Positions 37,801-40,800 of a stretch of DNA of 64,000 nucleotides are shown one piece after another. How positions within the stretch are numbered: the stretch's first letter is position 1; each line of letters starts with the position of its first letter. This DNA comes from Escherichia coli (GTDB lineage Bacteria > Pseudomonadota > Gammaproteobacteria > Enterobacterales > Enterobacteriaceae): assembly GCF_024223415.1 (NCBI RefSeq), contig NZ_CP100500.1; one strand, 5' to 3'. Position numbers: made by a program.

Positions 37801-40800
37801 ATCGCTGGTCGTACTTACGACGACGAAGATCTGGTGAAATATGTTGATGTTGGTGCTACCTACTACTTCAACAAAAACATGTCCACCTATGTTGATTACA
37901 AAATCAACCTGCTGGACGACAATAACTTCACCCGCGCTGCTGGCATCAACACTGATGACATCGTAGCTCTGGGTCTGGTTTACCAGTTCTAATCTCGATT
38001 TCTATCGAACAAAGGGCCTGCGGGCCCTTTTTTCATTGTTTTCAGCGTACAAACTCAGTTTTTTGGTGTACTCTTGCGACCGTTCGCATGAGGATAATCA
38101 CGTATGGAAATAAGCTTTACCCGCGTGGCACTGCTGGCTGCCGCGCTCTTCTTTGTTGGTTGCGATCAAAAACCACAACCCGCCAAAACCCACGCTACTG
38201 AAGTTACCGTTCTTGAAGGCAAAACTATGGGTACCTTCTGGCGTGCCAGCATCCCGGGCATTGACGCCAAACGCAGCGCCGAACTTAAAGAAAAGATTCA
38301 GACCCAGCTGGACGCCGACGATCAGCTGCTTTCGACCTATAAAAAAGATTCCGCGCTGATGCGCTTTAACGATTCGCAAAGTTTATCGCCGTGGCCGATA
38401 AGTGAAGCGATGGCCGAAATCGTCACTACCTCGCTGCGCATTGGCGCAAGGACCGATGGCGCGATGGATATAACCGTCGGGCCGCTGGTGAATCTGTGGG
38501 GCTTTGGCCCGGAACAACAGCCGGTTCAAATTCCGAGCCAGGAACAGATCGATGCGATGAAAGCCAAAACCGGCTTACAGCACCTGACGGTCATTAATCA
38601 GTCGCATCAGCAATATCTGCAAAAAGACCTGCCGGATTTATATGTCGATCTCTCCACCGTCGGTGAAGGTTATGCGGCGGATCACCTGGCACGCTTGATG
38701 GAGCAGGAAGGGATTTCCCGCTATCTGGTGTCGGTGGGCGGCGCGCTGAACAGCCGTGGTATGAACGGTGAAGGCCAGCCGTGGCGGGTAGCGATTCAAA
38801 AGCCAACCGATAAAGAAAATGCGGTTCAGGCCGTGGTGGATATCAACGGTCATGGTATTAGCACCTCTGGCAGCTACCGTAACTATTACGAACTGGACGG
38901 CAAACGTCTTTCCCATGTTATCGATCCGCAAACCGGGCGTCCCATCGAACACAATCTGGTATCTGTGACGGTGATTGCTCCGACGGCGCTGGAAGCCGAT
39001 GCCTGGGATACTGGCTTGATGGTCCTCGGGCCGGAGAAAGCCAAAGAGGTTGTTCGCCGGGAAGGGCTGGCGGTTTATATGATCACCAAAGAAGGCGATA
39101 GCTTTAAAACCTGGATGTCACCACAGTTTAAAAGCTTCCTTGTCAGCGAAAAAAATTAAAGCGCAAGATTGTTGGTTTTTGCGTGATGGTGGCCGGGCAG
39201 ACTAAAGGCTATCCTTAACCAGGGAGCTGATTATGAAAAACGCCACATGCTTAACTGACGATCAACGCTGGCAATCTGTCTTAGCCCGCGACCCGAATGC
39301 CGACGGCGAATTCGTTTTCGCCGTGCGCACCACAGGCATCTTTTGCCGTCCGTCTTGCCGCGCCAGACATGCTTTGCGGGAAAACGTCTCCTTCTACGCA
39401 AATGCCAGCGAGGCACTCGCCGCCGGATTTCGCCCCTGCAAACGCTGCCAACCTGATAAAGCCAATGCCCAGCAACATCGGTTGGATAAAATCACCCACG
39501 CGTGTCGACTGCTGGAACAGGAAACGCCTGTAACGCTGGAAGCCTTAGCCGACCAGGTGGCGATGAGTCCGTTCCATCTGCATCGGTTGTTTAAAGCGAC
39601 TACCGGAATGACGCCTAAAGCCTGGCAACAGGCCTGGCGCGCTCGCCGTTTGCGCGAATCGCTGGCGAAAGGGGAGAGCGTGAAGACGTCTATTCTTAAT
39701 GCCGGATTCCCCGACAGCAGCAGTTACTACCGCAAAGCCGATGAAACGCTGGGCATGACGGCTAAACAATTCCGTCACGGTGGCGAAAATCTGGCGGTGC
39801 GTTACGCGCTGGCTGATTGTGAGCTGGGTCGTTGCCTGGTGGCAGAAAGCGAGCGGGGGATTTGCGCGATATTGCTGGGCGATGATGACGCGACACTAAT
39901 CAGCGAGTTGCAGCAGATGTTTCCCGCTGCCGACAACGCGCCTGCCGATCTGACGTTTCAGCAACATGTGCGTGAAGTGATCGCCAGCCTCAATCAACGC
40001 GATACGCCGCTGACGTTACCGCTGGATATTCGCGGCACTGCTTTTCAGCAACAAGTCTGGCAGGCACTGCGCACGATACCTTGCGGTGAAACCGTCAGTT
40101 ATCAGCAACTGGCTAACGCCATCGGCAAACCGAAAGCGGTACGGGCCGTTGCCAGTGCCTGTGCCGCCAACAAGCTGGCTATCGTAATTCCCTGTCATCG
40201 AGTGGTCCGTGGTGATGGCACACTTTCCGGTTACCGCTGGGGCGTGTCGCGTAAAGCGCAACTGCTGCGCCGCGAAGCTGAAAATGAGGAGAGGTAATGT
40301 TGGATCTGTTTGCCGATGCTGAACCGTGGCAAGAGCCACTGGCGGCTGGTGCGGTGATTTTACGGCGTTTTGCTTTTAACGCTGCAGAGCAACTAATCCG
40401 CGATATTAATGACGTTGCCAGCCAGTCGCCGTTTCGCCAGATGGTCACCCCCGGGGGATATACCATGTCGGTGGCGATGACCAACTGTGGGCATCTGGGC
40501 TGGACGACCCATCGGCAAGGTTATCTCTATTCGCCCATTGATCCGCAAACAAATAAACCGTGGCCCGCCATGCCGCAGAGTTTTCATAATTTATGTCAAC
40601 GTGCGGCTACGGCGGCGGGCTATCCAGATTTCCAGCCAGATGTTTGTCTTATCAACCGCTACGCTCCTGGCGCGAAACTGTCGCTGCATCAGGATAAAGA
40701 CGAACCGGATCTGCGCGCGCCAATTGTTTCTGTTTCTCTGGGCTTACCCGCGATTTTTCAATTTGGTGGCCTGAAACGTAATGATCCGCTCAAACGTTTG

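What the first reader, a model, noticed from the sequence alone, without database searches (positions are those of the whole stretch)
39155..39170. Ada box overlaps the apbE stop codon
The Ada-binding motif AAT-taaagc-GCAA (core AAAGCGCA at 39158-39165) begins inside the last apbE codons and stop (TAA at 39157-39159). The methylation-responsive promoter of ada-alkB is therefore packed into a 73-bp spacer with no room for an apbE terminator, and read-through from apbE into ada is possible.
Basis: partly seen in the sequence, partly recalled or inferred. Interest (0 to 1): 0.2.

Follow-up and report, generated by a model that had tools for sequence, protein, structure and literature searches.

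The report
Known ada promoter overlapping apbE stop
The DNA site where the alkylation-damage sensor Ada switches on its own gene really does sit on the last codon and stop codon of the neighbouring gene apbE; this is the textbook E. coli ada promoter, so it is ordinary, although the overlap is kept in every related species examined.

Summary
The window is E. coli chromosome carrying ompC-apbE-ada-alkB-yojI on the + strand. The Ada site AATTAAAGCGCAA lies at 39154-39166. Its A box (AAT) is the last apbE codon (Asn351), TAA at 39157-39159 is the stop, and the B box (GCAA) is at 39163-39166. The spacer to the ada ATG is 73 bp, as in K-12.

This exact 13-mer is published as the Ada box of ada, so the element is already known.

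Three points go beyond the finding:
- In 80 Enterobacteriaceae species apbE is always directly upstream of ada. The core AT-TAA-A-NN-GCAAG is invariant, and the preceding A is kept in 80 of 81 sequences. Other Asn codons in apbE switch freely between AAT and AAC, and distant ApbE proteins rarely end in Asn. The DNA site, not the protein, therefore constrains these bases.
- No terminator-like structure lies in the spacer.
- Published long-read data list ompC-apbE-ada transcripts, and tiling-array signal for apbE runs to about 20 nt before the ada ATG. Read-through is therefore real, but it must be small, because basal Ada is about one molecule per cell.

The transcription start (about 39211) is inferred, not verified. 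Interest is low.

The parts
38011..38036 (+). ompC intrinsic terminator (hairpin AAAGGGCCTGCGGGCCCTTT plus T-run), the only strong terminator upstream of ada
   Evidence: Pattern scan. Term-seq 3' end at K-12 2311605. SMRT-Cappable-seq: 152 of 191 reads end here and 6 pass through.
38104..39159 (+). apbE (ftp) coding sequence, 351 aa, FAD:protein FMN transferase
   Evidence: ORF list. NCBIfam NF007774 equivalog, 724 bits. RefSeq annotation.
39154..39156 (+). Ada A box (AAT), which is also the last sense codon of apbE (Asn351)
   Evidence: Sequence. AAT in 80 of 81 Enterobacteriaceae sequences, CAT in one. Other invariant Asn columns of ApbE use both AAT and AAC.
39157..39159 (+). apbE stop codon TAA, lying in the 6-nt gap between the A and B boxes
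   Evidence: Sequence. TAA in 81 of 81 sequences. Controls: alkB TAA 65 of 78, ompC TAA 73 of 76.
39154..39166 (+). Complete Ada-binding site AATTAAAGCGCAA (A box, N6, B box). The older 'Ada box' AAAGCGCA is 39158-39165.
   Evidence: Unique match in the window. The identical 13-mer is listed for ada in PMC6505713 Table 7. Invariant in 7 divergent E. coli alleles.
39163..39166 (+). Ada B box GCAA
   Evidence: GCAAG is invariant in 81 sequences. Contact residues F114, H115 and R118 are present in the window's Ada (named in PMC4437013).
39174..39184 (+). Inferred -35 region: conserved GGTTTTT (39174-39180) overlapping TTGCGT (39179-39184)
   Evidence: GGTTTTT is 83-100% conserved per position. 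It keeps a fixed 17-bp distance to the conserved CAnnnT element. The assignment as -35 is inference.
39198..39203 (+). Inferred -10 hexamer CAGACT (CAGCCT in K-12); C, A and the final T are invariant across species
   Evidence: Spacer alignment of 73 species. A -10 element starting with C is described for the Ada-dependent aidB promoter. Inference, not mapped here.
39210..39214 (+). Inferred ada transcription start (probably the A at 39211)
   Evidence: Invariant TA 7-8 nt after the conserved -10-like hexamer. The tiling-array boundary between constant apbE signal and induced ada signal falls at window 39213, at 7-14 nt probe resolution.
39221..39226 (+). ada ribosome-binding site AGGGAG
   Evidence: Sequence. 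GGAG is conserved in the spacer alignment.
39233..40297 (+). ada coding sequence, 354 aa, with C38, R45, C69, R71, F114, H115, R118 and C321
   Evidence: NCBIfam NF011964 equivalog, 750 bits. Residue check. Matches PDB 1ZGW, 1U8B and 1SFE.
40297..40947 (+). alkB coding sequence; its ATG overlaps the ada stop (TAATG), so it is co-transcribed with ada
   Evidence: ORF list. NCBIfam NF011930. Sequence. The tiling array reports ada-alkB-yojI as one induced transcript.

Best explanation
This is the well-characterised, methylation-dependent promoter of the E. coli ada-alkB operon. Ada that has taken a methyl group onto Cys38 binds as a monomer to AAT-N6-GCAA (39154-39166), directly upstream of a weak -35 region. 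It recruits RNA polymerase, and transcription starts about 22 nt before the ada ATG. Because apbE ends only 73 bp before ada, the A box doubles as the last apbE codon (AAT, Asn) and the stop TAA sits in the gap between the boxes. These bases are therefore fixed by the DNA-binding function, and the arrangement is ancestral to the Enterobacteriaceae. No terminator separates apbE from ada. A small fraction of transcripts that start at the ompC promoter, or just upstream of apbE, run through the ada promoter into ada. This read-through is rare and yields at most about one Ada molecule per generation. Shown here: coordinates, gene identities, identity to the published site, conservation, absence of a terminator-like structure, and published read-through transcripts. 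Inferred: the exact -35, -10 and +1 positions, and any contribution of read-through to basal Ada.
For: Coordinates and genes. The same 73-bp junction is in K-12 and is present once in 5421 of 5426 complete E. coli genomes. The region 39143-39181 is identical in 7 alleles that differ elsewhere by up to 7.5%. The published Ada box of ada is the same 13-mer, 66 nt from the start codon. The A and B boxes and the contacting residues come from the Ada-DNA structures, and those residues are present in the window's Ada; the PDB entries exist. Salmonella's published variant GAATTAAAACGCA matches loci L029 and L030. In 80 species apbE directly precedes ada and AT-TAA-A-NN-GCAAG is invariant. Only 1 of 144 degenerate invariant-residue columns in ApbE uses a single codon, and the four invariant Asn columns all mix AAT and AAC. 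Only 8 of 128 distant ApbE representatives end in Asn. No terminator. Read-through. Low basal Ada.
Against: The primary mapping papers (Nakabeppu and Sekiguchi 1986; Teo et al. 1986; Sakumi and Sekiguchi 1989; Landini and Volkert 1995; He et al. 2005) were not in the library. The footprint limits and the start site could therefore not be checked against the coordinates. The start site is inferred from conservation and from a tiling-array boundary of 7-14 nt resolution. The motif is not enriched in the window by count. The SMRT-Cappable-seq variant that includes ada may rest on as little as one read; only 6 of 191 ompC reads pass the ompC terminator. The lack of a Term-seq 3' end for apbE may simply reflect low expression or truncated stored tables. 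TAA is also nearly universal at ompC (73 of 76), so the invariant stop codon alone is weak evidence.
Confidence: 0.92

Rival explanations
1. The apbE-ada junction is effectively insulated. Transcripts from apbE are stopped before or just inside ada by a mechanism that sequence scans cannot see, such as Rho acting on poorly translated ada RNA or polymerase stalling at the promoter. The few read-through molecules would then be noise with no physiological role.
For: Basal Ada is only about 1 molecule per cell, and 20-30% of cells have none. Yet apbE is clearly expressed on the tiling array (log2 about 10). Only 6 of 191 ompC-initiated reads pass the ompC terminator. ada mRNA is described as short-lived and poorly translated.
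Against: At least one full-length primary transcript covers all of ada from the ompC start. The apbE array signal continues through the spacer. No 3' end is listed at the junction, and no hairpin plus U-run is present.
Confidence: 0.35
2. The invariant AAT-TAA-A at the end of apbE is kept for apbE's own sake (a required C-terminal Asn, or an efficient termination context), and its overlap with the Ada site is incidental.
For: TAA is the commonest stop in these genomes and is 96% conserved at ompC. The terminal residue is Asn in 80 of 81 sequences.
Against: Distant ApbE proteins end in almost any residue, with Asn in only 8 of 128. The three residues before the terminal Asn vary freely within the family. 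Internal invariant Asn codons mix AAT and AAC, whereas the terminal one is always AAT. The single non-Asn case (CAT, L038) still keeps AT. The invariance continues past the stop into GCAAG, which termination context cannot explain. An ApbE locus without ada downstream (L088) has AAT TAA in an AT-rich genome but no GCAA.
Confidence: 0.04
3. The match is a chance occurrence of a short motif and is not the functional Ada site of this strain.
For: AATN6GCAA and AAAGCGCA occur at or below chance frequency in the window. The published tiling-array study found the 13-mer pattern equally often upstream of non-responsive genes.
Against: The sequence from 39143 to 39181 is identical to K-12, where this promoter was characterised. 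The exact 13-mer is the published ada site. It is invariant across 80 species at a fixed position relative to ada.
Confidence: 0.01

Closest known systems
E. coli K-12 ada-alkB promoter (Pada) with its Ada box
   Same: Same locus. The 73-bp apbE-ada spacer has the same length. The Ada site and its flanks (39143-39181) are identical base for base, and gene order ompC-apbE-ada-alkB-yojI is the same.
   Different: There are two substitutions in the core promoter relative to K-12: GGTGGCC against GGTGACC, and CAGACT against CAGCCT. Neither touches the Ada site.
aidB and alkA promoters of the E. coli Ada regulon
   Same: They share the AAT-N6-GCAA recognition logic and activation by methylated Ada. 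aidB also has a -10 element that can start with C, like the conserved CAnnnT found here.
   Different: They lie elsewhere in the genome and were not examined here. Both have an A instead of the C just upstream of the B box and bind Ada about 10-fold less tightly. Neither is reported to overlap an upstream gene's stop codon.
Salmonella enterica ada promoter (GAATTAAAACGCA)
   Same: Same synteny, and the same overlap of AAT-TAA with the apbE end (L029 and L030; published variant quoted).
   Different: The N6 bases differ (AACG against AGCG). The spacer is 80 bp, with extra bases between the -10-like element and the conserved CTATGCTTA. The literature reports a weaker adaptive response there.
Terminator read-through operon variants catalogued by SMRT-Cappable-seq
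   Same: ompC-apbE-ada is one of 883 RegulonDB operons reported as extended by read-through.
   Different: Here the downstream gene has its own tightly regulated promoter at the junction, and there is no terminator at all between apbE and ada.

Membership tests
Methylated-Ada-activated promoter (ada/aidB type) | Bipartite recognition site: A box AAT, 6 nt, B box GCAA | tested here: met
   AATTAAAGCGCAA at 39154-39166. It is identical to the published ada site.
Methylated-Ada-activated promoter (ada/aidB type) | Site lies immediately upstream of the -35 region, roughly -60 to -40 from the start | tested here: inconclusive
   With the inferred start at 39211, the A box is at -57 to -55 and the B box at -48 to -45. 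The start is inferred from conservation and an array boundary. The primary mapping papers were not available.
Methylated-Ada-activated promoter (ada/aidB type) | Drives a gene of the adaptive response | tested here: met
   ada and alkB follow directly. ada, alkB and yojI are reported as one MNNG-induced transcript.
Methylated-Ada-activated promoter (ada/aidB type) | Cognate Ada protein carries methyl-acceptor Cys38 and DNA-contact residues R45, R71, F114, H115 and R118 | tested here: met
   All are present in the window's Ada. The residues are named.
Methylated-Ada-activated promoter (ada/aidB type) | Induction by methylating agents and a footprint of methylated Ada on the site | not testable with these tools
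   Published for the identical K-12 sequence: +1.76 log2 after MNNG and strong Pada reporter induction.
Rho-independent (intrinsic) terminator for apbE | G+C-rich hairpin followed directly by a U-run, located between the apbE stop and ada | tested here: not met
   No site lies in 39160-39232. The only stable hairpin (39161-39168 with 39177-39184) is followed by GAUGGUGG, and the fold z-score is -1.29. Term-seq lists no 3' end for apbE.
Polycistronic unit ompC-apbE-ada (read-through operon variant) | Single RNA molecules that span the gene junction | tested here: met
   Established from published data only. SMRT-Cappable-seq Supplementary Data 2 and 3 list b2215|b2214|b2213 from the start at 2312828, with listed genes fully covered. 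The read number is small.

The most novel reading that the evidence does not exclude
The rare, random basal production of Ada (about one molecule per generation) decides which cells respond late to alkylation damage and mutate more. It might come largely from read-through of ompC/apbE transcripts across the terminator-less junction rather than from unactivated firing of the ada promoter. Noise in the adaptive response would then depend on porin and apbE transcription, and so on osmolarity through OmpR. The conserved lack of a terminator would be a selected feature that guarantees a trickle of sensor protein.
Probability: 0.12. Interest if true: 0.5.

Novelty: already known. Interest (0 to 1): 0.14.

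Why it matters
As it stands the finding re-identifies a textbook promoter, so it matters little. It has two modest uses. First, it is a clean natural example of bases serving two functions at once: a codon plus stop codon that is also a transcription-factor site, with measurable loss of synonymous freedom across a whole bacterial family. The comparison also supports AAT-N6-GCAA over the older AAAGCGCA as the true recognition sequence. Second, the terminator-less junction raises a testable question about where basal Ada comes from. Basal Ada is the quantity that sets cell-to-cell variation in alkylation repair and mutation rate.

Tried and rejected
- **Motif statistics in the window.** Neither motif is enriched, so counts cannot support the site. 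Position and conservation were used instead.
- **Primary ada-promoter papers and sequence-string searches of the literature.** Not held, or no hits, so footprint and start-site coordinates could not be checked directly.
- **Cappable-seq start-site tables and Rend-seq and Term-seq supplements.** These gave nothing usable for this locus.
- **A 38-nt BLAST of the Ada site against all E. coli genomes.** It returned nothing, probably because the A-run was masked or the query was too short. Seven divergent alleles were aligned instead.
- **A word-indexed ApbE search.** It returned only Enterobacteriaceae and was useless as a control. The exhaustive representative search supplied the distant orthologs.
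- **Sequestration of the ada ribosome-binding site in read-through RNA.** The idea was that pairing with apbE 3' coding sequence (39133-39140 with 39221-39228 in the fold) would hide the site. Pairing probability is 0.91 in this E. coli sequence but averages 0.10 over 73 species, against 0.12 for shuffled controls. It was rejected as a conserved mechanism.
- **A known RNA element in the spacer.** Rfam gives only MicF upstream of ompC and one sub-threshold chance hit.
- **The terminator-like hairpin inside apbE at 39054-39073.** The region holds 5 such sites against 4.7 expected, and this one is inside translated sequence. It was treated as chance.

Full report
**What is in the window.** The stretch around the finding reads ...GTC AGC GAA AAA AAT TAA AGCGCAAGATTGTTGGTTTTTGCGTGATGGTGGCCGGGCAGACTAAAGGCTATCCTTAACCAGGGAGCTGATT ATG.... 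The ORF list gives a 351-aa ORF at 38104-39159 and a 354-aa ORF at 39233-40297, followed by a 216-aa ORF at 40297-40947. NCBIfam equivalog models identify, in order on the + strand, OmpC, ApbE, Ada, AlkB and the YojI-type ABC transporter. A 601-bp query across the junction matches 5421 of 5426 complete E. coli genomes, once per genome at the median (highest 2). Several strains match at 100%, and all are annotated apbE | ada. In K-12 MG1655 the same genes lie on the minus strand with the same 73-bp gap: ada 2309341-2310405 and apbE (named ftp) 2310479-2311534. A window position p corresponds to K-12 coordinate 2349638 - p.

**Check of the observation.**
- AAT is 39154-39156, the last sense codon (Asn351).
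- TAA is 39157-39159.
- AAAGCGCA is 39158-39165, and GCAA is 39163-39166.
- The spacer 39160-39232 is 73 bp.

The motif starts at 39154 rather than 39155. By motif count alone the site is unremarkable: AATN6GCAA occurs 6 times in the window against 15 expected, and AAAGCGCA 8 times against 4.8 expected. A published tiling-array study likewise found the 13-mer pattern equally often upstream of responsive and non-responsive genes. The case for function therefore rests on position, identity to the characterised site and conservation.

**Identity with the known site.** Table 7 of PMC6505713 lists AATTAAAGCGCAA for ada, 66 nt from the annotated start at 2308427 in the older K-12 numbering, with +1.76 log2 induction by MNNG. 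That is exactly the 13-mer and distance seen here. The row also fixes the offset between the two K-12 numberings at 1978. Reviews summarising the Ada-DNA structures state that all three Ada-dependent promoters contain an A box (AAT) and a B box (GCAA). R45 and R71 contact the A/T pairs, F114, H115 and R118 contact the B box, and methylation of C38 removes an electrostatic clash with DNA. All of these residues, plus C321, are present in the window's Ada, and the corresponding PDB entries exist. The older box AAAGCGCA and the Salmonella variant GAATTAAAACGCA are quoted in PMC3788762. The element is therefore already known. I could not read the primary mapping and footprint papers. The statement that the footprint spans roughly -63 to -31 is my recollection of that literature, not a tool result.

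**Conservation.** Seven E. coli alleles that differ by up to 7.5% over a 241-bp stretch spanning the junction are identical from 39143 to 39181. Differences appear only in the -35/-10 core and in the flanking coding sequence. A scan of one genome per species returned 80 loci from Escherichia, Citrobacter, Salmonella, Enterobacter, Klebsiella, Raoultella, Kluyvera, Kosakonia and other genera.
- In every locus an ApbE homolog ends just upstream of ada. The spacer is 66-83 bp in 78 loci and about 230 bp in two.
- Anchored on the stop codon, positions -2 to +3 (AT TAA A) and +6 to +10 (GCAAG) are invariant in all 81 sequences.
- Position -3 is A in 80 of 81; one Enterobacter asburiae sequence has CAT.
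- The two middle bases of the old box vary (AA, CA, AC, CC, GC), so AAAGCGCA is not conserved while AAT-N6-GCAA is.

**Is the constraint on DNA or on protein?** The evidence favours the DNA site.
- Only 5 of the 50 third-codon positions in the last 50 apbE codons are invariant.
- Of 144 degenerate columns with an invariant residue across 72 full-length ApbE genes, only one uses a single codon. The four invariant Asn columns all mix AAT and AAC, and overall usage is 395 AAT to 467 AAC.
- Among 128 full-length ApbE cluster representatives at 50% identity or less, the last residue is Asn in only 8.
- Two of these distant loci have no ada downstream. One of them ends AAT TAA in an AT-rich genome but lacks GCAA.
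- The stop codon is weaker evidence, because ompC also uses TAA in 73 of 76 loci, while alkB uses TAA in 65 of 78.

The terminal codon and the bases after the stop are thus held by the DNA site, and the overlap is ancestral to the family.

**Promoter architecture (inferred).** Three elements are conserved downstream of the B box:
- GGTTTTT at 39174-39180;
- a hexamer CAnnnT exactly 17 bp later, with C, A and T invariant (39198-39203, CAGACT here, CAGCCT in K-12);
- an invariant TA at 39210-39211 inside CTAnnCTTA, followed by GGAG and the ATG.

A -10 element beginning with C is described for the Ada-dependent aidB promoter. This suggests a start at about 39211, which puts the A box at -57 to -55 and the B box at -48 to -45. 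The estimate is independently consistent with the tiling array. There, the constantly expressed apbE transcript is called from 2309581 to 2308447 in old numbering, which is window 38079 to 39213. It ends 20 nt before the ada ATG, where the induced ada signal takes over, at 7-14 nt probe spacing. On this reading the promoter is not confined to the spacer. The A box and the A-rich tract before it lie in apbE codons.

**Terminator and read-through.**
- The pattern scan finds the ompC terminator (38011-38030 plus T-run) but nothing in 39160-39232. The count for the region equals the shuffled expectation.
- Folding 39130-39240 as RNA gives a hairpin between 39161-39168 and 39177-39184 that is not followed by a U-run. 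The overall z-score is -1.29.
- Rfam finds no RNA family in the spacer.
- A Term-seq table lists a very strong 3' end at the ompC terminator (2311605) and none assigned to apbE or ada. This is negative evidence only.
- SMRT-Cappable-seq reports 191 reads from the ompC start at 2312828. Of these, 152 end at the ompC terminator and 6 pass it.
- That study lists operon variants b2215|b2214 and b2215|b2214|b2213 as novel relative to RegulonDB. It states that only fully covered genes are listed.

At least one primary transcript therefore runs from ompC through apbE and the whole of ada. Its yield must be tiny. Single-molecule counts give about one Ada made per generation, a mean of about 1.4 per cell, and 20-30% of cells with none. 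AlkB is absent from most cells.

**Side lead tested and dropped.** In this sequence, read-through RNA is predicted to pair apbE codons 39133-39140 with the ada ribosome-binding site. The pairing probability is 0.91. Across 73 species the mean is 0.10, no better than shuffled controls at 0.12, so this is not a conserved device.

**Verdict.** What this analysis adds is family-wide invariance of the codon/stop/box overlap, comparative support for AAT-N6-GCAA over AAAGCGCA, and pointers to published data showing read-through. The one open idea is that read-through supplies the basal Ada that sets response noise. It is possible but untested. Novelty: already known. Interest: low.

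Noticed in passing
window 40252-40261: The 10-mer TAAAGCGCAA of the Ada site recurs inside the 3' end of ada (codons R-K-A-Q), 36 bp before the alkB ATG. It has the B box but no AAT at the A-box position (GCG instead). A published scan also noted Ada-box-like fragments before alkB. About 0.1 such 10-mer repeats are expected by chance in 64 kb.
   Followed up: partly
window 39161-39168 and 39177-39184: The B-box region and the -35 region form an imperfect inverted repeat (GCGCAAGA / TTTTGCGT), which gives the only stable hairpin in the spacer RNA. In most other genera the equivalent is GCAAGATTGC, which places a second GCAA on the opposite strand. Significance unknown.
   Followed up: no
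window 39133-39140 with 39221-39228: In read-through RNA of this E. coli sequence the ada ribosome-binding site is predicted to pair with apbE coding sequence (probability 0.91). The pairing is not conserved in 73 species (mean 0.10 against 0.12 for shuffled controls).
   Followed up: yes
window 39181-39203; alignment A1: The core promoter varies among E. coli lineages (TGCGTG, TGTGCG, TGCGCG or TGTGCA after the T-run; GGTGGCC or GGTGACC; CAGACT against K-12 CAGCCT; one allele has CTAACG). The Ada site and its flanks stay invariant. This could give strain differences in basal or induced ada expression.
   Followed up: no
L028 (Citrobacter sedlakii) and L084 (Klebsiella indica), spacer between the promoter and the ada ATG: Two species carry unrelated insertions of about 155-160 bp downstream of the conserved promoter elements, giving 227- and 234-bp spacers. 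The Ada site stays attached to the apbE stop codon.
   Followed up: no
L013, L014, L016, L019-L027, L029, L030, L085: between the CAnnnT element and CTATGCTTA: Citrobacter, Salmonella and Intestinirhabdus have 6-10 extra bases here that look like a local duplication (for example AAGGCTA AGCACTA). This would shift the start site or lengthen the leader. Salmonella is reported to have a weak adaptive response.
   Followed up: no
L038 (Enterobacter asburiae INSAq146), last apbE codon: This is the only sequence of 81 in which the terminal codon is CAT (His) rather than AAT, so the A box is reduced to AT.
   Followed up: no
window 38037-38103: SMRT-Cappable-seq lists no start site specific to apbE; its apbE-containing variants all begin at the ompC start. 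The tiling-array apbE transcript begins 25 nt before the apbE ATG, just after the ompC terminator. apbE may be expressed largely by read-through of the ompC terminator.
   Followed up: partly
window 39054-39073: A terminator-like hairpin plus T-rich tail (TCGCCGGGAAGGGCTGGCGG TTTATATG) lies inside apbE, 85 nt before its stop. Such sites occur at chance frequency in this region.
   Followed up: no
window 36453-36546, minus strand: MicF small RNA (Rfam RF00033, 116.8 bits) is divergent from ompC, as in K-12.
   Followed up: no
window 40295-40299: The ada stop and the alkB start overlap as TAATG, consistent with translational coupling in the ada-alkB operon.
   Followed up: no
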